From IMG/VR virus record IMGVR_UViG_2802429232_000001, positions 1 to 31,025 of that record: 31,025 nt of DNA; one strand, given 5' to 3'. Each line of letters opens with the position of its first letter. Positions within the stretch are counted from its first letter, which is position 1. The DNA is from a virus. Lineage: Duplodnaviria; Heunggongvirae; Uroviricota; Caudoviricetes. Below the pieces are notes generated by a model. It was given only the letters and a program-made list of their open reading frames with translations, searched no databases and had not been told where the DNA came from. A program made the position numbers and the translations under genes. This document shows, in pieces, positions 17,192-31,025 of this stretch.

Positions 17192-17221
17192 CAAAAAGGG
17201 TGGGCGTATAGCCCACCCTTT
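17192..17221 (-). terminator. Intrinsic terminator after putative major capsid gene
   Basis: AAAGGGTGGGC-gtata-GCCCACCCTTT; on the transcribed strand a GC-rich 8-11 bp stem is followed by TTTTTGT. Lies between the capsid stop (17253) and the next gene RBS. Confidence 0.7.
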
Positions 17222-25470: not shown

Positions 25471-26150
25471 TACATACGCTCCTTGTAGTAGTCGACCAGC
25501 CACACCAGAGCCTCACCAGCGTTCTCCATTTCATTACCGGTGTTAATAGCCTGCTCTTTGATGATGTTTTTTATGGTTTCTGCAACACGATCTGACGCAT
25601 CGAAAGTTACTTTGAAGCGCATGGTCTGATGTTCCGCACCCACACGTTCGGTTTTCTCTCGTTTGTCGGTATCGACAGGCTCATCACTACCACGAGACAA
25701 AGCCTCCAGTGCTTCAAGGTCGATTGCCGCCTCTTTTGCTAAAACCATCGAGATTTCGTCGTCATACGGGGCGATTTCAGACAGTTGATAGTCAAGTTCT
25801 GACTGAATTTCTTCAATGAAGCGTTGCAATGCGATTTGGTCGTCTTCACCGTATCGCTCGTTGTCCACCAGTGACATCTGTTTAGCTACGACATCGCTAA
25901 TTTTGCCCACAGAAAGCACCGGAACCGTTGAAATTCCTTGCTCAATAGCAGCACGCCAGCGATGTTCGCCGCCGAGGATTTCAAAAAATCCATCTTCAAG
26001 TTCACGAGCCAAAATTGGCTTAAAAAAGCCCAATTTTTCGATAGAACCTTTCAGTTTTTCAAAATTCTGCGCACCAACCGAATTGGTGTTCCAGGTATTC
26101 GGGCGAAGGTTGGCAACATCAACCTGCAAAATCGTGATTTTTACATCCAT
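25470..26150 (-). CDS. ParB/Srx-fold N-terminal domain protein (first copy)
   Basis: ORF track 25470..26168; Met1 (26168) or Met7 (26150) are both possible. ParB motif FEILGGEHRWRAA; acidic C-terminal half. Confidence 0.6.
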   Translation of the reverse strand: MDVKITILQVDVANLRPNTWNTNSVGAQNFEKLKGSIEKLGFFKPILARELEDGFFEILGGEHRWRAAIEQGISTVPVLSVGKISDVVAKQMSLVDNERYGEDDQIALQRFIEEIQSELDYQLSEIAPYDDEISMVLAKEAAIDLEALEALSRGSDEPVDTDKREKTERVGAEHQTMRFKVTFDASDRVAETIKNIIKEQAINTGNEMENAGEALVWLVDYYKERM

Positions 26151-26168
26151 TTTATTGCTACAATCCAT

Positions 26169-26232
26169 TAAGTAATCACTTACTTATTATAATAGCCAAA
26201 TAACATACAAAAGGCACTAAGGAAAGAGGTTT
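26169..26232. promoter_or_regulatory. Divergent intergenic region with inverted repeat TAAGTAA-tcac-TTACTTA and TATAAT-like element
   Basis: Only 64 bp separate the divergent gene starts. Inverted repeat at ~26169-26186; TATAAT at ~26188-26193, readable on both strands; no convincing -35. Strong SD AAGGAAAGAGG precedes the helicase ATG. Confidence 0.4.
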
Positions 26233-27792
26233 ATGACTGTTCGGATTGTATCTAACGCAGTAAATGCACTTATTTCTGGCGCAGATGACAAGGTAAAGCA
26301 ACTGGTGCAACAGATGTTGAGCTACGAAGTCGAGACTGGCGACTGGAAGGGCACAAGCACGATGTTCAACTGGAGTAAAAACTCGTTCCCTGCTGGCTTT
26401 GCCAAGCCTGTAGCGGCGAACTTGAACAAGGCGGGCATCAAATGTGTTCATATCCGCAAAGACAAAGCTCCGGCGCTTGGAAAGCCAAATCCGGCGGTCA
26501 ACCCATTCCCATACAATCCTGATTATGCATATCAGGATCAGACTGTGGAAACACTGGTTCGAGAGGGAATGATGATTGCGCAGATCGCTACTGGTGGCGG
26601 GAAATCTAATGTTGCCTGCAAAGCAGCTGCACGTATCGGTCGAATGACATTATTTTTAACAACCCGCTCTGTTCTGATGTTTCAGATGGCCGAAAACTTC
26701 CAGAGATCCATCGACTACCGCGCCGAAAATGGCGAACCGTGGTTAAAAGACCAAAAGGTTGGAGTCATTGGCTCGGGTGAGTTCCAGGTATCACGACATA
26801 TCAACGTCGCTACAGTTCAAACTCTGGCAAGTTTCCTTGAAGAACCACCACGCGATGCAACTCCAGATAAGAAGAGCTACCACCTCAAACGTCGGGACTT
26901 GGTGAAACGCTTCCTTTCAAGTGTCTCTCTTCTTATTCTGGAAGAGGCGCATGAGTCTTCAGGCTCTAATTTCTATGACATTGCCAGATTATGTGCGAAC
27001 GCAGACTATCGCCTGGCGCTTACGGCAACGCCGTTCATGAAGGATTCTACGGAAGCCAACATGCGTCTGATGGCAGTGGCCGGGCGAATTGAAATAAAAG
27101 TCACGGAAAAGTACCTGATTGATAGAGGCATTCTGGCAAAGCCATACTTCCTTTATCATAAAGTTGCCTACAAGCCGGACGAGGCCAGAATCAAGGCAGA
27201 ACTTGCCAACAAACACCTCAATTTTAGAGTAGGTATGAGCACTGCCTACCAAAAGGCTTATCAGTTGGGGATCGTGTATAATTTGGGACGTAATGAGGCC
27301 ATTGTTCGCGAAGCATTGCTCTATAAGCAACATTCTCTCAATTGTATGACTCTGGTTCGTCTTAAACGCCACGGGCAAATCCTGATGGAAATGATGAAAG
27401 AGTCCGGCCTTAGAGTTGACTTCATTTATGGGGAATCGAACCAGTCGACAAGGCAAGCAAAGCTGAACAGTTTAGCGTCTGGCGACATAGATGTTTTAAT
27501 AGGCTCGACTATTCTGGATGTCGGTGTTGATGTGCCAAGCGTTGGTGCGGTCATTCTTGCTGGTGGTGGGAAAGCAGAAGTTGAAATGAGACAACGTGTC
27601 GGTCGTGGCTTACGAGCCAAGAAGAATCAGGCAAACGTGTGTTTTATCACTGATTTCATTGACATTAGCAACAAATACCTGTTGTCTCACTCTTATGAGC
27701 GAAAACACATCATCGACACCACACCTGGCTTTGCAGAAGGTGTATTGCCTGTTGATGGCGCATTCGATTTTGGAGTTCTGAAACGAGATTAG
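26233..27792 (+). CDS. Superfamily 2 helicase (DEAD/DEAH-like, ResIII-type core)
   Basis: ORF track (519 aa). Motif I IATGGGKSN, motif II LILEEAHE, motif III LTATPF, motif VI QRVGRGLR. Confidence 0.8.
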   Translation: MTVRIVSNAVNALISGADDKVKQLVQQMLSYEVETGDWKGTSTMFNWSKNSFPAGFAKPVAANLNKAGIKCVHIRKDKAPALGKPNPAVNPFPYNPDYAYQDQTVETLVREGMMIAQIATGGGKSNVACKAAARIGRMTLFLTTRSVLMFQMAENFQRSIDYRAENGEPWLKDQKVGVIGSGEFQVSRHINVATVQTLASFLEEPPRDATPDKKSYHLKRRDLVKRFLSSVSLLILEEAHESSGSNFYDIARLCANADYRLALTATPFMKDSTEANMRLMAVAGRIEIKVTEKYLIDRGILAKPYFLYHKVAYKPDEARIKAELANKHLNFRVGMSTAYQKAYQLGIVYNLGRNEAIVREALLYKQHSLNCMTLVRLKRHGQILMEMMKESGLRVDFIYGESNQSTRQAKLNSLASGDIDVLIGSTILDVGVDVPSVGAVILAGGGKAEVEMRQRVGRGLRAKKNQANVCFITDFIDISNKYLLSHSYERKHIIDTTPGFAEGVLPVDGAFDFGVLKRD

Positions 27793-27794
27793 TT

Positions 27795-28073
27795 ATGAGC
27801 GAAAAGAAAACAACTTATTGCCAAGTGGCATTGTCTGATAAGGCCAATGAAAAACTTGGAAAATTTCAAATAAAACTCAAAGAGAAAAAAATCAAGATGT
27901 CTAAGGCTGAAGTTATCAATGCCATTCTGGAGACGATGACTATGGCTGAATTTGACAAAGTCACATCTGCCGTTGGGGTTTCCGCTAAGACGCGTGAGAA
28001 AATCATGCGCATCTATGAGAACTCCAATATGACAAAAAAAGATCTAGAGGAAATACTGAGCAGGTTGCCGTAA
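27795..28073 (+). CDS. Hypothetical small protein (92 aa), Lys/Glu-rich
   Basis: ORF track; start 2 nt after helicase stop, so co-transcribed. Confidence 0.5.
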   Translation: MSEKKTTYCQVALSDKANEKLGKFQIKLKEKKIKMSKAEVINAILETMTMAEFDKVTSAVGVSAKTREKIMRIYENSNMTKKDLEEILSRLP

Positions 28074-28105
28074 CATTTCATATTTACCCCCTATCAACTA
28101 ATTCT

Positions 28106-28141
28106 ATGATGTGCTCACTTGTTAGAAAGGAGCACATCATG
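28106..28141 (+). promoter_or_regulatory. Perfect 11-bp inverted repeat ATGATGTGCTC-N13-GAGCACATCAT covering the SD and start codon of the next gene
   Basis: Read directly; the right arm ends in the ATG at ~28139 and the loop contains AAGGAG. Could form an mRNA hairpin occluding translation initiation, or be a dimeric-protein operator. Confidence 0.5.
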
Positions 28142-28705
28142 AGTTGGTTAAAAGAATTATCATTTGTTGACACCACTGGCGCTAAGAAAAATCATTCTTT
28201 CTGGAAAGTCAGCGATCCTTCTGATTTTCTTGTTGGTGCTAATGCTGCGTTTGAATTGCTTAACTTTTATCAACGTTATCCTGAAATGAAACACAGTCCA
28301 CTCCTGTACAGAATAACAAACGATATGAATAGGTCTGGTTTATTATCAAGTGAGTCAGCGAAAGGCTTTTTTAGCAAAATTACGCCACACATATCATTCG
28401 ATGCAGCAAACGAAATTGATTATCTATCCACGAAACCTCAAGAACAATTATCTGTACCACCTGAGAAAAAAGAAAGACGAATTGCCAGCATTGAAAATAT
28501 ATCGAAAGAGCTTCGCACAACAACGTTGAGGCTGCTGAACTTTCTTACGCTACTTAATTGGATAGATGATCAAACATTGATTCCATCAACCGATGCGTTG
28601 GATAACAGAGTCCTTCGTCTAAACAAAAAATCGCAATTTGGTTTTGTGTTCACCAAAAAAGGTGAAGATTTAATCAAAAGAAAATATAGATTATTGAATG
28701 ATTAA
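28139..28705 (+). CDS. Hypothetical protein (189 aa), AT-rich gene
   Basis: ORF track 28106..28705; start moved to ATG at 28139 (MSWLKEL), which has AAGGAG 7 nt upstream. Visibly lower G+C than the structural genes (by eye, not computed). Confidence 0.5.
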   Translation: MSWLKELSFVDTTGAKKNHSFWKVSDPSDFLVGANAAFELLNFYQRYPEMKHSPLLYRITNDMNRSGLLSSESAKGFFSKITPHISFDAANEIDYLSTKPQEQLSVPPEKKERRIASIENISKELRTTTLRLLNFLTLLNWIDDQTLIPSTDALDNRVLRLNKKSQFGFVFTKKGEDLIKRKYRLLND

Positions 28706-28710
28706 TAGTC

Positions 28711-28740
28711 TACATGCAGGTGTATGAGAGCACCTGCATG
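28711..28740 (+). terminator. 11-bp perfect hairpin ACATGCAGGTG-N8-CACCTGCATGT after the 189-aa gene (terminator-like or operator)
   Basis: Read directly; the T-run (TTTTTT) sits ~13 nt downstream rather than adjacent, so not a textbook intrinsic terminator. Confidence 0.4.
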
Positions 28741-28850
28741 TGACATTCATCACATTTTTTGAAGTACACACCTCCGGCTGAAAAAATTTCTTGATTGGCT
28801 GAACGATATTTGTAGGCTTTTCAATTGATAACTAAGGTCGGATACTGTAG

Positions 28851-29339
28851 ATGAGTATTTCTATAAACAAAATAATTAACTCTTTACGACATAAAATATC
28901 ACATGGAAAAGATGTTCTTTTTAAAGACAAATATTATCTATTCAACTTAGTGCCGTACAAATGTACAAAATTTTATATCACTCGGGACTGTAAATATTCA
29001 GTTTCAATCACAAAAGACATGAAGAAAATCTCTTCAGAAGAGTACTTCATATCACATATTTATATCTACCCATTTAAATTAGAACCATTAAATATAATTC
29101 TTCCAACAATAAAAGGGGTTGAACTTGAAGGTTATACTTTAAGCTCTAACTTTAATGATATGGGTGTACAAAAACCAGGGTCAAGGTCATACTACGCCTA
29201 CAAAGTAAAATGCAATAACTACAACGCACTTAACATGCTAATCAGCAAACTTGAAACGGAGATAGTCAAAGGAAATCTAAATGATGATCATGAAAAATTA
29301 GAACAAATAGAAAAACTTAGAAAGTGTGATGTTAAATAA
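28851..29339 (+). CDS. Hypothetical protein (162 aa), strongly AT-rich gene
   Basis: ORF track. Lys/Asn/Ile/Tyr-rich; composition by eye roughly 30-35% G+C, clearly below the rest of the window. Confidence 0.5.
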   Translation: MSISINKIINSLRHKISHGKDVLFKDKYYLFNLVPYKCTKFYITRDCKYSVSITKDMKKISSEEYFISHIYIYPFKLEPLNIILPTIKGVELEGYTLSSNFNDMGVQKPGSRSYYAYKVKCNNYNALNMLISKLETEIVKGNLNDDHEKLEQIEKLRKCDVK

Positions 29340-29354
29340 TTGGATTATCATGAT

Positions 29355-29954
29355 ATGAAAATGAAACTTTCGTTACTCCTTGCTTGTATATGCCTCCCGG
29401 CGTTTTCCGCCAACGCATTATCAGATTTCGTCTCTGACATGCAAAAAACGTACAGCATGTATACTTCTGAAGACGTACTAAAATACAAATCACGAGGTCT
29501 GATTCAACCAGTCTGGTATAGATTCTCAGATAACGCAGAAGAAACAATACTTCATGCAGGAAAAGAAAGATTACGGTTGCAAATTAACGGGACCGCAGTA
29601 CCAGAAAACGCTAATGTAAGCTCTAACGAGGCCATGAAGCCATCTGGAATTGTTTTAGAAATTCAAGACGGTACACTCTATTGTGATGAAATGGCTACAA
29701 CGGGTTGCCAAGTGAACATCAGAGTTGGCAATGAAGAACCTATTGTCACTTATGCTAAGACTGAAGGGAATACCAGTGGGAAGGTATTGTTTATTGATGA
29801 AAACACAACAAAACGTATCGTTCGCGACATCAAGAAAACAACGAACTCTAAATCCGTCGATAAAAAAATCTATGTTGAAGTCCCCTTCTTGGTCGTTGGT
29901 AACAAAGAATTTAAATTTGGATTGCTGAAAACACCTCTAAGAGTATCAGAATGA
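29355..29954 (+). CDS. Secreted protein or lipoprotein (signal peptide MKMKLSLLLACICLPAFSANA)
   Basis: ORF track 29340..29954 begins at a TTG; first ATG at 29355 gives a classic signal peptide with a possible lipobox (LLAC) or signal peptidase I site (AFSA-NA). Confidence 0.5.
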   Translation: MKMKLSLLLACICLPAFSANALSDFVSDMQKTYSMYTSEDVLKYKSRGLIQPVWYRFSDNAEETILHAGKERLRLQINGTAVPENANVSSNEAMKPSGIVLEIQDGTLYCDEMATTGCQVNIRVGNEEPIVTYAKTEGNTSGKVLFIDENTTKRIVRDIKKTTNSKSVDKKIYVEVPFLVVGNKEFKFGLLKTPLRVSE

Positions 29955-30472
29955 GAACATTGGACATCACCTACGGCATACCGGCTGAAGTATGGCCGCG
30001 AAACTACGAACATGCTGAACGCACCTTGCTCTTCTGGCGGAGTGCTCAATTTCCTGTAAGAGTCACTCTCGAAGACGGCCAAGTGTTTTGCATGTATGTC
30101 TACGGGCTGTTGAGCGCAAGAAATAAGCTGAACCTCACACCAGATCCGTTTAGCAACACAAATCGTGTAAGGCTCCCTCTTGAGCGCATTAGCACAATTG
30201 AGTCAGGCATAGAAGAGGTTGACACTTCATTCACAGGTCGACTAACACTGAACAATGAACAGATGGTTAATCAGCCATCACGCCGTGACTTTTTTGCGAT
30301 ATGTCGCAAGGCTTATCAAAACGACCAATCTATAAGGGTCTACATGGCAGACGGTCGTGAAATAGAAGGGGTATCAAGAGGCGTTGATGCTTGCCAGGTC
30401 ACTCTTAAGTTAGAAGACGGCAGAAAAATACTTGTTTTCTTCGATTGGGTTGAACGAATTTTACCTTTTTGA
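29951..30472 (+). CDS. Protein with two Rof/YaeO-like repeats (putative Rho-interacting Sm-like fold)
   Basis: ORF track (173 aa); start overlaps upstream stop (ATGA). Both halves carry hydrophobic-x-hydrophobic-x-(E/K)DG cores (RVTLEDGQVF, RVYMADGREIEG, QVTLKLEDGRKILVF) and a tail RVRLPLERISTIES that resemble E. coli Rof (LTLELKDGEKLQAKA, RELRLDKITSFS) as I recall it. Confidence 0.45.
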   Translation: MRTLDITYGIPAEVWPRNYEHAERTLLFWRSAQFPVRVTLEDGQVFCMYVYGLLSARNKLNLTPDPFSNTNRVRLPLERISTIESGIEEVDTSFTGRLTLNNEQMVNQPSRRDFFAICRKAYQNDQSIRVYMADGREIEGVSRGVDACQVTLKLEDGRKILVFFDWVERILPF

Positions 30473-30475
30473 GTT

Positions 30476-30772
30476 ATGAAATCGATACTATTGACATCTT
30501 TATTTTTAGTTTACTCAATTTCGGCCAATGCAAAGGATGATATCGCAATTATTCAGTCGCTGATGAATGACGTATGCTCAACGTCTCAGAATGTACCAGT
30601 TTGCATGTTTAAACTTTCAGCAGCTGTAAAACTAGGGATAAACATTGGTAAGACCGCTCAACTATGTGAACAAGTGGAAAATTATGAACCATGTGAATCG
30701 AACAACTCTTCTGTGCAGTTCGTTGATGCGTTATTTGACACCAATCGTAAGGCTGTAGAGTCAGTCCGATAA
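30476..30772 (+). CDS. Small secreted Cys-containing protein (signal peptide MKSILLTSLFLVYSISANA)
   Basis: ORF track (98 aa); cleavable signal peptide; mature part has four Cys. Confidence 0.5.
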   Translation: MKSILLTSLFLVYSISANAKDDIAIIQSLMNDVCSTSQNVPVCMFKLSAAVKLGINIGKTAQLCEQVENYEPCESNNSSVQFVDALFDTNRKAVESVR

Positions 30773-30784
30773 ATGTATAAGGGT

Positions 30785-30813
30785 AATAACCGGCTAAGTC
30801 CGGTTATTTTTTT
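30785..30813 (+). terminator. Intrinsic terminator closing the plus-strand accessory operon
   Basis: AATAACCGG-ctaagt-CCGGTTATT followed directly by TTTTTTT, 13 nt after the last stop codon. Confidence 0.75.
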
Positions 30814-31025
30814 AAATGCCATTTATTAAATACACCTCCAATTCTACCCCGTATAAATATATAAGGTTATAAGCCGCAATTAATTATTTATTTAGGGAAC
30901 ACCTTCGACGATCTCGATTTTATTTCTAGGACTTCCGTCCCTGCAAAAAATTTAAAAAAAAACATGCAATCTTTTTTTGCGTATCGATAATTTAACGAAT
31001 AAGAAACGAGAGTAAAAATTTTCTT

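What the first reader, a model, noticed from the sequence alone, without database searches (positions are those of the whole stretch)
28106..28141. Perfect 11-bp inverted repeat enclosing the SD and start codon of the 189-aa gene
Seen in sequence: ATGATGTGCTC-N13-GAGCACATCAT with the ATG in the right arm and AAGGAG in the loop. Inference: either an mRNA hairpin that keeps the gene translationally silent until melted or processed, or an operator for a dimeric DNA-binding protein; both imply regulated expression of the AT-rich cassette.
Basis: seen in the sequence. Interest (0 to 1): 0.45.

Follow-up and report, generated by a model that had tools for sequence, protein, structure and literature searches.

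The report
Hairpin locking a phage-plasmid gene's start
A very stable, evolutionarily conserved stem-loop buries the ribosome-binding site and start codon of one accessory gene of an SSU5-type E. coli phage-plasmid; it most likely keeps read-through mRNA from the neighbouring operon untranslated, which is a well-known kind of control found here in a new place.

Summary
Window 28106-28116 and 28130-28140 form a perfect 11-bp inverted repeat around a 13-nt loop. The Shine-Dalgarno AAGGAG straddles the loop/stem junction and the ATG lies at the stem base. As RNA the region folds at -29.7 kcal/mol (z = -8). Opening this ribosome-binding site costs 27.5 kcal/mol, against 7.9 ± 3.3 for 29 neighbouring genes.

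The window is an SSU5/pHCM2-like E. coli phage-plasmid. Every homologue of the 188-aa gene examined has the same hairpin (18 distinct sequences from several enterobacterial genera, protein identity down to 35%). The 12-bp helix is intact in 17 of 18. Support for pairing is one compensatory G-C to C-G swap, one G-U change, and clade-specific lower helices built from codons 2-4. Loop length is free (13, 14, 16 or 25 nt), which argues against a rigid dimer operator.

Published RNA-seq of phage-plasmid Cyrano, which has the identical hairpin, shows a 7-30-fold RNA drop across this gap.

Best reading: a cis-acting mRNA lock that silences translation of read-through transcripts. How the lock is released is unknown. 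One thing remains unexplained: the arm sequences are invariant, while the gene's 3' hairpin has turned over completely in sequence. This is a new member of a known kind, of moderate-to-low interest.

The parts
28106..28116 (+). 5' arm of the hairpin (anti-RBS arm), ATGATGTGCTC
   Evidence: The core ATGTGCTC is identical in 17 of 18 distinct relatives.
28117..28129 (+). 13-nt loop ACTTGTTAGAAAG. Its 3' AAG is the first half of the Shine-Dalgarno sequence.
   Evidence: Loop sequence and length vary among relatives (13, 14, 16, 25 nt) except for the purine-rich 3' end. In the E. coli clade CUU/AAG adds 3 pairs inside the loop.
28130..28140 (+). 3' arm GAGCACATCAT, made of the second half of the SD, the 6-nt spacer and the A and T of the start codon
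   Evidence: It is invariant except C to T in L012 (giving G-U) and C to G in the non-E. coli clade, where the change is compensated in the 5' arm.
28127..28132 (+). Shine-Dalgarno AAGGAG, 6 nt upstream of the ATG
   Evidence: Read. GGAG is kept in all 18 relatives.
28139..28141 (+). Start codon of the 188-aa gene
   Evidence: RefSeq CDS start. The N-terminal alignment MSWLKEL / MNYLAEL fixes this ATG. The upstream in-frame ATGs at 28106 and 28109 have no SD, and they fall out of frame in the 14- and 16-nt-loop relatives.
28096..28104 (+). 5' strand of the lower helix, AACTAATTC (E. coli clade)
   Evidence: It pairs with 28141-28149, with two U.G pairs that work only on the sense strand. The sense strand folds 4-9 kcal/mol better than the antisense strand in this clade.
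28141..28149 (+). 3' strand of the lower helix, GAGTTGGTT (G of the ATG plus codons 2-4)
   Evidence: Other clades have a different extension, (TA)GTT/AAC(TA), also built from codons 2-3. Pair 10-68 reads AU:5, GC:3, GU:1.
28074..28105 (+). G-free, pyrimidine-rich spacer between the stop codon of the 92-aa gene and the hairpin. It contains the conserved block TTTACCCCC (28083-28091).
   Evidence: no G in 32 nt. A block TTT(A/T/C)(C/T)CCC is conserved about 17-18 nt upstream of the stem in all clades. Its role is not tested; a 30S standby platform and a Rho loading site are my inferences.
28083..28110 (+). Candidate sigma-70 promoter TTTACC-16-TATGAT, whose transcripts would start in the loop and lack the 5' arm
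   Evidence: One search lists it at 9/12, but 14 such sites were found against 11.9 expected. In the other clades the -35 is about 2/6 and the -10 is CATCAT. It is a weak candidate only.
28139..28705 (+). The controlled gene, 188 aa, phrog_13473, function unknown. The C-terminal third is possibly a winged-helix / KilAC(ANT)-like domain.
   Evidence: PHROG hit at 8e-132; no Pfam hit for the window protein. ANT (PF03374) is hit by 3 of 27 members at E = 0.026. The AF2 model has pLDDT 78; fold hits are weak (E >= 0.02) but repeatedly wHTH / KilAC / antirepressor.
28712..28741 (+). 3' stem-loop of the same gene (11-bp perfect inverted repeat, 8-nt loop), 7 nt after the stop codon
   Evidence: A 7-12 bp stem (10-12 bp in 10 of the 11) is kept in 11 of 11 relatives with almost entirely different sequence. 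It serves as an internal control showing how a structure-only constraint evolves in these genomes.
26233..28073 (+). Upstream co-oriented genes (DEAD/DEAH helicase 26233-27792; 92-aa protein 27795-28073) that supply the read-through transcripts
   Evidence: In phage-plasmid Cyrano these are CYRAN_118 and CYRAN_117, both transcribed in lysogens (PMC9928086 S1 Table).

Best explanation
The inverted repeat acts in the mRNA, not in the DNA. When RNA polymerase reads from the helicase/92-aa operon into the 188-aa gene, the transcript folds at once into a 12-23-bp stem-loop. This buries the strong SD (AAGGAG) and the AUG, so 30S subunits cannot load and the gene stays untranslated.

The untranslated message is then probably lost by Rho-dependent polarity or decay; this step is inferred.

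The hairpin therefore insulates a tightly controlled accessory gene from transcription that is constitutively on in the lysogen. Expression must need an RNA whose 5' end lies inside the hairpin (from its own promoter or by processing) or an active opener. Which of these applies is not known.

Shown here: the structure, its stability, its conservation with the gene, and the free loop. Taken from the literature: the RNA level drops across the gap in a 97%-identical phage-plasmid. Inferred: the translational block, the polarity and the release mechanism.
For: (1) Anatomy. SD and AUG lie in the 3' arm, with near-optimal SD and 6-nt spacing. A strong SD inside a strong stem suggests an on/off lock rather than a merely weak site.

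(2) Energetics. The fold is -29.7 kcal/mol, z = -7.96; the core alone is -18 to -21 in all clades. Opening positions -18 to +6 costs 27.5 kcal/mol, against a mean of 7.9, sd 3.3, max 15.3 for 29 other CDS of the sibling plasmid.

(3) Co-inheritance. The hairpin precedes every homologue found, in Escherichia, Klebsiella, Enterobacter and others, and precedes no other gene. Pattern scans of viral and metagenome contigs gave only chance matches elsewhere.

(4) Pairing is kept. 12 bp are paired in 17 of 18 sequences: one G-C to C-G double change, one G-C to G-U, and a U.G versus C-G base pair. Shifted-register controls give 22-52% paired against 87%.

(5) Loop length varies (13, 14, 16, 25 nt) with fixed arms. 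A hairpin tolerates this; spaced half-sites do not.

(6) Clade-specific helix extensions recruit codons 2-4 and use G.U pairs on the sense strand. In the E. coli clade the sense strand folds 4-9 kcal/mol better than the antisense strand.

(7) Cyrano has the identical hairpin. Across 10 RNA-seq samples, log2 fpkm is 6.3-9.9 for the upstream 92-aa gene and 2.3-5.9 for the 188-aa gene (PMC9928086 S1 Table).

(8) SSU5 lacks the gene and has a canonical intrinsic terminator at the same position. The operon boundary therefore sits here.
Against: - No experiment shows that translation is blocked.
- Covariation in the 12-bp core is thin: one compensatory event, and otherwise invariance, which is uninformative about pairing.
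- The arms are far more conserved than pairing requires. The 3' hairpin of the same gene turned over completely in the same genomes. Some sequence-specific constraint is therefore unaccounted for.
- In L301 the two left-arm transitions would be G.U on the antisense strand, not the sense strand.
- Outside the E. coli clade, sense and antisense folds are about equally stable.
- The RNA-seq drop could equally reflect termination, processing or H-NS silencing of the AT-rich DNA.
- No release mechanism is identified. The candidate internal promoter is at chance level and is poorly conserved.
Confidence: 0.6

Rival explanations
1. The stem-loop is primarily the 3' boundary of the helicase/92-aa operon: a non-canonical terminator, or a 3'-end-stabilising or processing hairpin. 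Its overlap with the next gene's RBS is secondary.
For: - In Cyrano, RNA abundance falls 7-30-fold exactly across this gap. The 3'-proximal 92-aa gene is 2-4 times more abundant than the helicase gene, as expected if a 3' hairpin protects transcript ends.
- SSU5 has a canonical terminator at the homologous position.
- The G-poor, C/T-rich tract upstream could load Rho (inference).
Against: - There is no U-tract. The terminator scan does not call it, and the first residues after the stem are A/G (AGUUGG, AAUUAC).
- The would-be tail is itself base-paired in the lower helix.
- A pure terminator has no need to keep SD, spacer and AUG inside the arm in every lineage.
- It would be expected to drift in sequence as the gene's own 3' hairpin does.
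- Any read-through RNA would still be translationally locked, so this reading complements the best one rather than replacing it.
Confidence: 0.15
2. The repeat is a DNA operator. A dimeric or flexibly linked DNA-binding protein binds the two half-sites ATGTGCTC / GAGCACAT and represses a promoter in the 65-bp gap. The candidates are the gene's own product, with its putative winged-helix C-terminus, or the RHH-like 92-aa protein.
For: - The arms are sequence-invariant across genera, while the loop and the neighbouring 3' hairpin are free to change. This is what protein recognition predicts.
- The repeat always travels with the 188-aa gene.
- The protein's most conserved segment (KLLNFL..W.D) lies in the putative DNA-binding domain, and a roughly 25-residue low-confidence linker could tolerate variable spacing.
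- A promoter-like TTTACC-16-TATGAT overlaps the 5' arm.
Against: - Half-site spacing varies by 1, 3 and 12 bp, which puts the sites on different helical faces.
- Centre-to-centre distance is 25-37 bp, atypical for a dimer.
- No further copy of the half-site occurs above chance in the 105-kb plasmid.
- The promoter-like site is at chance level and degenerates in the other clades.
- An operator does not explain the clade-specific complementarity extending into codons 2-4, which includes G.U pairs.
- The DNA-binding assignment rests on sub-threshold hits.
Confidence: 0.12
3. The long duplex is an RNase III (or other endonuclease) processing site. Cleavage either activates the gene by freeing the RBS, as in the E. 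coli adhE and lambda N leaders, or destroys the message.
For: - In the window the duplex reaches about 23 bp with one bulge, and 15-18 bp in several relatives. This is within the RNase III substrate range (my knowledge of the enzyme).
- A lock of -18 to -30 kcal/mol cannot open spontaneously, so some active release is needed.
Against: - Duplex length is not conserved. It is only 12 bp in L026 and 14 bp in L303, and it is interrupted in L014 and L301.
- No cleavage data exist.
- Sequence invariance of the arms is not a known RNase III requirement.
Confidence: 0.08

Closest known systems
Hairpins that block translation of read-through transcripts: B. subtilis sigG (the 20+ bp hairpin in spoIIG read-through RNA; PMC5942855), phage T4 gene e (lysozyme) early transcripts, and IS10 'fold-back inhibition'. 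The last two are from my own knowledge.
   Same: - A long stem pairs the RBS of a gene with sequence just upstream.
- The gene lies downstream of an actively transcribed unit.
- The stem is too stable to breathe open.
- The effect is to uncouple the gene from upstream transcription.
   Different: In those systems a mapped promoter fires between or inside the arms, so the gene's own transcript lacks the 5' arm. Here only a chance-level sigma-70-like site exists, and it is not conserved in the other clades. The loop is only 13-25 nt, so any promoter would have to overlap the 5' arm.
Translational operators bound by a protein: the MS2/Q-beta replicase operator with coat protein, and T4 gene 32 / gp43 / RegA targets (my own knowledge)
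   Same: A hairpin containing the SD and/or AUG of a phage gene. Sequence conservation beyond what pairing needs hints at a specific ligand.
   Different: Known operators are short stems whose loop and bulge bases are read by the protein. Here the loop is free and the conserved part is a perfect 12-bp duplex with no bulge. No binding partner is identified.
RBS-occluding leader opened by RNase III: E. coli adhE and the lambda N leader (my own knowledge)
   Same: The RBS is buried in an intramolecular duplex and needs active processing for translation.
   Different: Cleavage is not shown here, and duplex length is not conserved (12-23 bp).
RNA thermometers (ROSE, fourU, lambda cIII)
   Same: The SD and AUG are sequestered in a stem.
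   Different: Thermometers have short stems rich in mismatches that melt at 37-42 C. This stem is perfect, at -18 to -30 kcal/mol.
Intrinsic terminator at the same genomic position in Salmonella phage SSU5 (L017 4076-4101)
   Same: Same location, just after the 92-aa gene's stop codon. Both are stable stems at the end of the helicase operon.
   Different: The SSU5 element has a GC-rich stem plus a T-run and does not overlap an RBS. The window element has no T-run and contains the next gene's SD and AUG.

Membership tests
cis-acting RBS-sequestering mRNA hairpin | SD and start codon lie within the base-paired part of a stem-loop | tested here: met
   GAG of the SD plus AU(G) lie in the 3' arm, and AAG of the SD is paired inside the loop in the MFE fold.
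cis-acting RBS-sequestering mRNA hairpin | The structure is significantly more stable than composition predicts and is unusual among the genome's ribosome-binding sites | tested here: met
   z = -7.96. Opening energy is 27.5 kcal/mol, against 7.9 +/- 3.3 and a maximum of 15.3 for 29 other CDS.
cis-acting RBS-sequestering mRNA hairpin | Pairing is conserved in homologues, with compensatory or wobble changes | tested here: met
   17 of 18 sequences keep the 12 bp. There is one double change, one G-U, and U.G versus C-G at the base; extension pair 10-68 reads AU:5, GC:3, GU:1. Support is modest because most pairs never vary.
cis-acting RBS-sequestering mRNA hairpin | Disrupting the stem raises translation and compensatory changes restore repression | not testable with these tools
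   This needs reporter fusions or toeprinting.
read-through-insulating hairpin (sigG / T4 e / IS10 type) | An upstream transcription unit reads into the gene | tested here: met
   The genes are co-oriented, separated by a 65-nt gap with no canonical terminator. The upstream genes are transcribed in Cyrano lysogens, and about 3-12% of that signal continues into the gene (PMC9928086 S1 Table).
read-through-insulating hairpin (sigG / T4 e / IS10 type) | The gene's own promoter starts transcription inside the hairpin, so the 5' arm is missing | tested here: inconclusive
   TTTACC-16-TATGAT would place +1 at about 28117, in the loop. But such sites are at chance frequency (14 found, 11.9 expected). 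In other clades the -35 is about 2/6 and the -10 is CATCAT. No TSS data exist.
intrinsic (Rho-independent) terminator | A GC-rich stem immediately followed by a U-tract | tested here: not met
   The terminator scan does not report it. The tail is GAGUUGGUU, or AAUUACUU in other clades, and it is itself paired in the lower helix.
palindromic operator of a dimeric DNA-binding protein | Half-sites at a fixed spacing and helical phase | tested here: not met
   The spacer between identical arms is 13, 14, 16 or 25 bp in different relatives.
palindromic operator of a dimeric DNA-binding protein | It overlaps a promoter, or recurs at other regulated promoters of the element | tested here: inconclusive
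   Only a chance-level promoter-like site overlaps it. The 8-mer half-site occurs twice elsewhere in 105 kb, against about 3 expected, and never as a pair.
RNA thermometer | A marginally stable stem with mismatches or non-canonical pairs that melts at physiological temperatures | tested here: not met
   It is a perfect 11-12 bp stem, -18 to -21 kcal/mol for the core and up to -29.7 with the extension.
RNase III processing site | About two helical turns of near-continuous duplex, conserved | tested here: inconclusive
   The duplex is about 23 bp in the window and 15-18 bp in several relatives, but only 12-14 bp in L026 and L303 and interrupted in L014 and L301.
protein-bound translational operator (MS2 type) | Conserved unpaired loop or bulge nucleotides that the protein reads | tested here: not met
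   Loop sequence and length vary, and the core has no conserved bulge. Only the duplex sequence is conserved.
any curated RNA family (Rfam 15) | A match to a covariance model | tested here: not met
   No match at E <= 1 in 25500-31025 on either strand.

The most novel reading that the evidence does not exclude
The hairpin may be more than a passive lock. It could be a sequence-specific switch read by a dedicated partner. The 12-bp arms are identical across several genera of Enterobacteriaceae, whereas the loop and the gene's own 3' hairpin have diverged freely. In one lineage (L301) the RBS-side arm stays identical even though the other arm has decayed.

That pattern would fit one of two arrangements:
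- A trans-acting protein or RNA that binds the arm sequence. The gene's own KilAC/winged-helix-like product acting in autoregulation is one candidate; a phage- or host-encoded opener is another.
- A dual-use sequence in which the 5' arm is also the gene's activator-dependent promoter.

If the 188-aa protein is an antirepressor-type switch protein, this would be the SSU5-family counterpart of the RNA-level antirepressor controls of P1 (c4) and P22 (sar).
Probability: 0.15. Interest if true: 0.55.

Novelty: new member of a known kind. Interest (0 to 1): 0.3.

Why it matters
SSU5/pHCM2-type phage-plasmids are common in clinical Enterobacteriaceae. This gene-plus-hairpin unit is on plasmids of 87 of 5,426 complete E. 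coli genomes and on 183 PLSDB plasmids. Almost nothing is known about how they regulate their accessory genes.

The hairpin marks one hypothetical gene as deliberately silenced at the translation level while its neighbours are transcribed in the lysogen. That flags the gene as probably costly or switch-like, so it is a sensible target for functional work.

Three practical points follow:
- RNA-seq alone would overestimate expression of this gene from read-through RNA.
- The 199-aa annotations that start in the 5' arm are probably wrong.
- The element offers a compact natural insulator part.

The mechanism class itself is textbook.

Tried and rejected
- **Rfam search of 25500-31025** at E <= 1 found nothing.
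After filtering for the SD context, only loci with the same gene family remained.
- **Search for further half-site copies** in the window and in the whole 105-kb sibling plasmid gave chance level only.
- **Sigma-70 promoter scan:** the site overlapping the 5' arm is not above background.
- **Terminator scan:** the hairpin is not called.
- **Function of the 188-aa protein:**
  - There is no Pfam hit for the window protein.
  - PADLOC gives only a 12-bit SspC fragment.
  - The PDB sequence profile finds nothing.
  - Foldseek against PDB and BFVD finds nothing at E < 0.02.
  - Recurrent weak wHTH/KilAC hits are at best a hint.
- **In-frame upstream ATGs (28106, 28109) as the true start:** rejected. 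They have no SD, and the frame is lost in the 14- and 16-nt-loop relatives.
- **RNA thermometer:** rejected on energy.
- **CRP/FNR-type site for the 5' repeat:** TGTGC...GCACA resembles CRP half-sites, but the spacing is 17 or more rather than 6. Rejected.
- **Hairpin in CMS-2020a (L016)** at the same position is not significant (z = -1.3).
- **First attempt at RBS-opening energies** used sibling-plasmid coordinates on the window, which is not colinear with it. It was redone on the sibling sequence.

Full report
**What is there**

The window matches about 110-kb non-mobilizable E. coli plasmids that are SSU5/pHCM2-type phage-plasmids. For 27000-29400 it is 100% identical to pAVS0747-B and 97-98% identical to Escherichia phages CMS-2020a, PhiR41_1 and Cyrano. 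The Salmonella phage SSU5 helicase is about 77% identical.

The finding lies in a 65-nt gap. Upstream is a co-oriented pair of genes: a DEAD/DEAH helicase (26233-27792) and a 92-aa protein (27795-28073). Downstream is a 188-aa hypothetical gene (28139-28705).

The repeat is exactly as reported: ATGATGTGCTC (28106-28116), a 13-nt spacer, then GAGCACATCAT (28130-28140). Three details need correcting. The SD AAGGAG (28127-28132) straddles the loop/stem junction. Only the A and T of the ATG are in the perfect arm. The protein is 188 aa.

**Is it more than chance?**

As RNA, 28095-28155 folds into one continuous stem-loop with three parts:
- the 11-bp helix;
- a 9-bp lower helix (28096-28104 with 28141-28149, i.e. 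codons 1-4), with one bulged U;
- 3 bp inside the loop.

The energy is -29.7 kcal/mol, against -9.8 ± 2.5 for shuffles (z = -7.96).

Perfect inverted repeats of at least 11 bp occur three times in the window, against 0.21 expected. One of the other two sits 7 nt after the stop codon of the same gene.

I computed the cost of making positions -18 to +6 single-stranded for every annotated CDS of the sibling plasmid stretch. This gene needs 27.5 kcal/mol. The other 29 average 7.9 ± 3.3, with a maximum of 15.3.

**Comparative evidence**

The protein family is narrow. It is PHROG 13473, with no Pfam match.

It is nevertheless present in SSU5-like elements of Escherichia, Klebsiella, Enterobacter, Cronobacter, Salmonella and Raoultella (PLSDB plasmids); the protein search adds Citrobacter. 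Identity to the window protein falls as low as 35%.

I recovered 18 distinct versions of the upstream region. All carry the hairpin at the same place. The findings are:

- **The 12-bp helix** (T/C)AT(G/C)ATGTGCTC / GAGCACAT(C/G)ATG is fully paired in 17 of 18.
- **One compensatory change.** Between the E. coli clade and all the others, one pair has changed on both sides (G-C to C-G).
- **Wobble changes.** L012 has a G-C to G-U change. The closing pair is U.G in the E. coli clade and C-G elsewhere.
- **The loop is free** in sequence and length (13, 14, 16 or 25 nt). Only its purine-rich 3' end, which completes the SD, is kept.
- **The helix continues below the core in a clade-specific way.** It always uses codons 2-4 and whatever lies upstream: AACUAAUUC/GAGUUGGUU in the E. 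coli clade and (UA)GUU/AAC(UA) elsewhere. One extension pair reads AU in 5 sequences, GC in 3 and GU in 1.
- **Small insertions are tolerated.** L013 has 1 nt and L014 has 4 nt inserted between the core and the ATG. Both keep the upper and lower helices.
- **One lineage has a decayed hairpin.** In L301 the 5' arm has two transitions and an insertion. Only the part pairing with AUGAUG remains, at -11.8 kcal/mol.

Register-shift controls give 22-52% pairing against 87% for the proposed structure.

Honest limit: most core pairs never vary, so covariation in the strict sense rests on one event plus wobble changes.

**RNA or DNA?**

Three observations favour an RNA hairpin on the sense strand.
- The spacing between identical arms changes by 1, 3 and 12 bp. 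That would rotate DNA half-sites onto different helical faces.
- The clade-specific extensions into the coding sequence have no meaning for an operator.
- In the E. coli clade these extensions contain U.G pairs, so the sense strand folds 4-9 kcal/mol better than the antisense strand.

Three observations cut the other way.
- Outside the E. coli clade the two strands fold about equally well.
- The two L301 transitions would be wobble pairs only on the antisense strand.
- The arm sequences are invariant.

There is no second copy of the half-site above chance, either in the window or in the whole 105-kb sibling plasmid. The only promoter-like site overlapping the repeat is TTTACC-16-TATGAT (28083-28110). 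It is one of 14 such sites where 11.9 are expected.

**Experimental context from the literature**

Phage-plasmid Cyrano of E. coli LF82 carries the identical hairpin. Its CYRAN_118, CYRAN_117 and CYRAN_116 are the helicase, the 92-aa gene and the 188-aa gene. In the S1 Table of PMC9928086 the values are log2(fpkm+5) in ten samples (LB, medium, and inside macrophages):

| Gene | Product | log2(fpkm+5) range |
|---|---|---|
| CYRAN_118 | helicase | 5.0-8.4 |
| CYRAN_117 | 92-aa protein | 6.3-9.9 |
| CYRAN_116 | 188-aa protein | 2.3-5.9 |

That is a 7-30-fold drop across the gap in every sample. The authors list CYRAN_117 among genes expressed 12-fold above prophage background in the lysogen.

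So the upstream unit is on in the lysogen and the RNA for the 188-aa gene is scarce. This fits three possibilities: an untranslated message lost by polarity or decay, a leaky terminator or processing site, or H-NS silencing of the AT-rich DNA (GC falls from about 45% to about 35% here). It does not discriminate among them.

SSU5 lacks the 188-aa gene. It has a canonical intrinsic terminator at the homologous position.

**Most likely mechanism**

The best-supported reading is a cis-acting mRNA lock. Read-through RNA from the helicase/92-aa operon folds co-transcriptionally. The near-consensus SD and the AUG are buried in a stem of -18 to -30 kcal/mol, so initiation is impossible. The untranslated RNA is then terminated or degraded; this last step is inferred.

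A strong SD inside a strong stem suggests an on/off device rather than a merely weak ribosome-binding site. Thermal melting is excluded by the energy.

Release must come from one of three routes, and none is demonstrated:
- a transcript starting inside the hairpin, on the sigG / T4 gene e / IS10 principle (for sigG see PMC5942855);
- endonucleolytic processing;
- a trans-acting opener.

The conserved G-free pyrimidine tract 28074-28105 (TTTACCCCC and its equivalents in all clades) could be a 30S standby platform or a Rho loading site. That is my inference only.

**What is not explained**

In the same genomes the gene's 3' stem-loop (28712-28741) keeps a 7-12 bp stem (10-12 bp in 10 of 11 relatives) but has almost completely different sequences in each lineage. 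That shows what a purely structural constraint looks like at this divergence.

The 5' hairpin behaves differently. Both arms are frozen. In L301 the RBS-side arm is still identical although the other arm has decayed. The SD and the ATG explain only 6 of the 12 positions.

Something else therefore reads this sequence. Candidates are a promoter embedded in the 5' arm, a protein, or an RNA.

The gene product has a C-terminal segment that weakly and repeatedly resembles winged-helix / KilAC(ANT) antirepressor domains:
- Pfam ANT is hit by 3 of 27 members at E = 0.026;
- Foldseek hits are at E >= 0.02;
- the AF2 model has pLDDT 78.

Autoregulation is therefore conceivable but unsupported.

**Verdict**

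The operator option is weakened. The claim about the whole cassette is too broad.

The element is a new example of a well-known regulatory device, in a poorly studied but clinically common family of mobile elements.

Noticed in passing
window 28712-28741: A stem-loop lies 7 nt after the stop codon of the 188-aa gene (11-bp perfect inverted repeat, 8-nt loop). Its sequence is almost entirely different in each of 11 relatives, while a 7-12 bp stem (10-12 bp in 10 of them) is kept. This is textbook covariation, and it contrasts with the frozen 5' hairpin of the same gene.
   Followed up: partly
window 28739-28754 (and 28791-28818): TGTGACATTCATCACA is a perfect CRP core (TGTGA-N6-TCACA) followed by a T-run. 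It is conserved as [TC]GTGA-N6-T[CT]ACA in 11 of 11 relatives and abuts the 3' hairpin. About 40 nt further on is a conserved block CCTCCGGCTGAAAAAA..TCTTGATTGGCTGA..TTTGTAGGCT (-35-like TTGATT at 28791-28796, -10-like TAGGCT at 28813-28818). This is probably a CRP-dependent promoter for the next genes (28851 onward).
   Followed up: partly
window 29951-30472: This gene encodes a full-length FljA-like 'repressor of phase-1 flagellin' (PF03614, E = 1.9e-68). It is conserved in every relative examined, including SSU5. Salmonella FljA is an RNA-binding translational repressor of fliC (my own knowledge), so these phage-plasmids may shut down host flagellin.
   Followed up: no
window 27795-28073: The 92-aa protein (phrog_1466) reads by eye like a ribbon-helix-helix DNA-binding protein: a beta-strand YCQVALSD followed by two helices. 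Its Cyrano orthologue CYRAN_117 is one of the most highly transcribed phage-plasmid genes in LF82 lysogens (PMC9928086).
   Followed up: partly
window 17195-17221: This is the third perfect 11-bp inverted repeat of the window, AAAGGGTGGGC-tatag-GCCCACCCTTT, in the structural-gene block. It looks like a bidirectional or minus-strand terminator-type hairpin.
   Followed up: no
L017 4076-4101 (Salmonella phage SSU5): SSU5 lacks the 188-aa gene. At the homologous position, right after the 92-aa gene, it has a canonical intrinsic terminator (11-bp stem, 6 GC pairs, T-run), followed by a lipoprotein gene.
   Followed up: yes
window 28106-28705; L297 5107-5706; P0002: Some annotations (Cyrano CYRAN_116; the 199-aa NCBI entries) start the gene at the ATG inside the 5' arm of the hairpin. 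Conservation and SD position favour the 188-aa start at 28139.
   Followed up: yes
window 26233-27792: The DEAD/DEAH helicase, annotated 'UvsW helicase' in Cyrano, matches PADLOC PbeA models (E = 3.6e-23). It sits divergently from two ParB-like genes and an ABC-ATPase gene.
   Followed up: no
L300 6728-10019 (pAVS0747-B 73841-77132), outside the window: The closest sibling plasmid carries full-length metG (methionine-tRNA ligase) and apbC genes, apparently chromosomal genes captured by the phage-plasmid. The window itself is not colinear with this plasmid over its whole length.
   Followed up: no
window 28000-31025: GC content drops from about 45-50% to 33-37% from the hairpin onward. The gene content of this stretch differs between relatives (lipoprotein gene, 162-aa, 204-aa and other ORFs), so it is a variable accessory region downstream of the conserved helicase operon.
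   Followed up: partly
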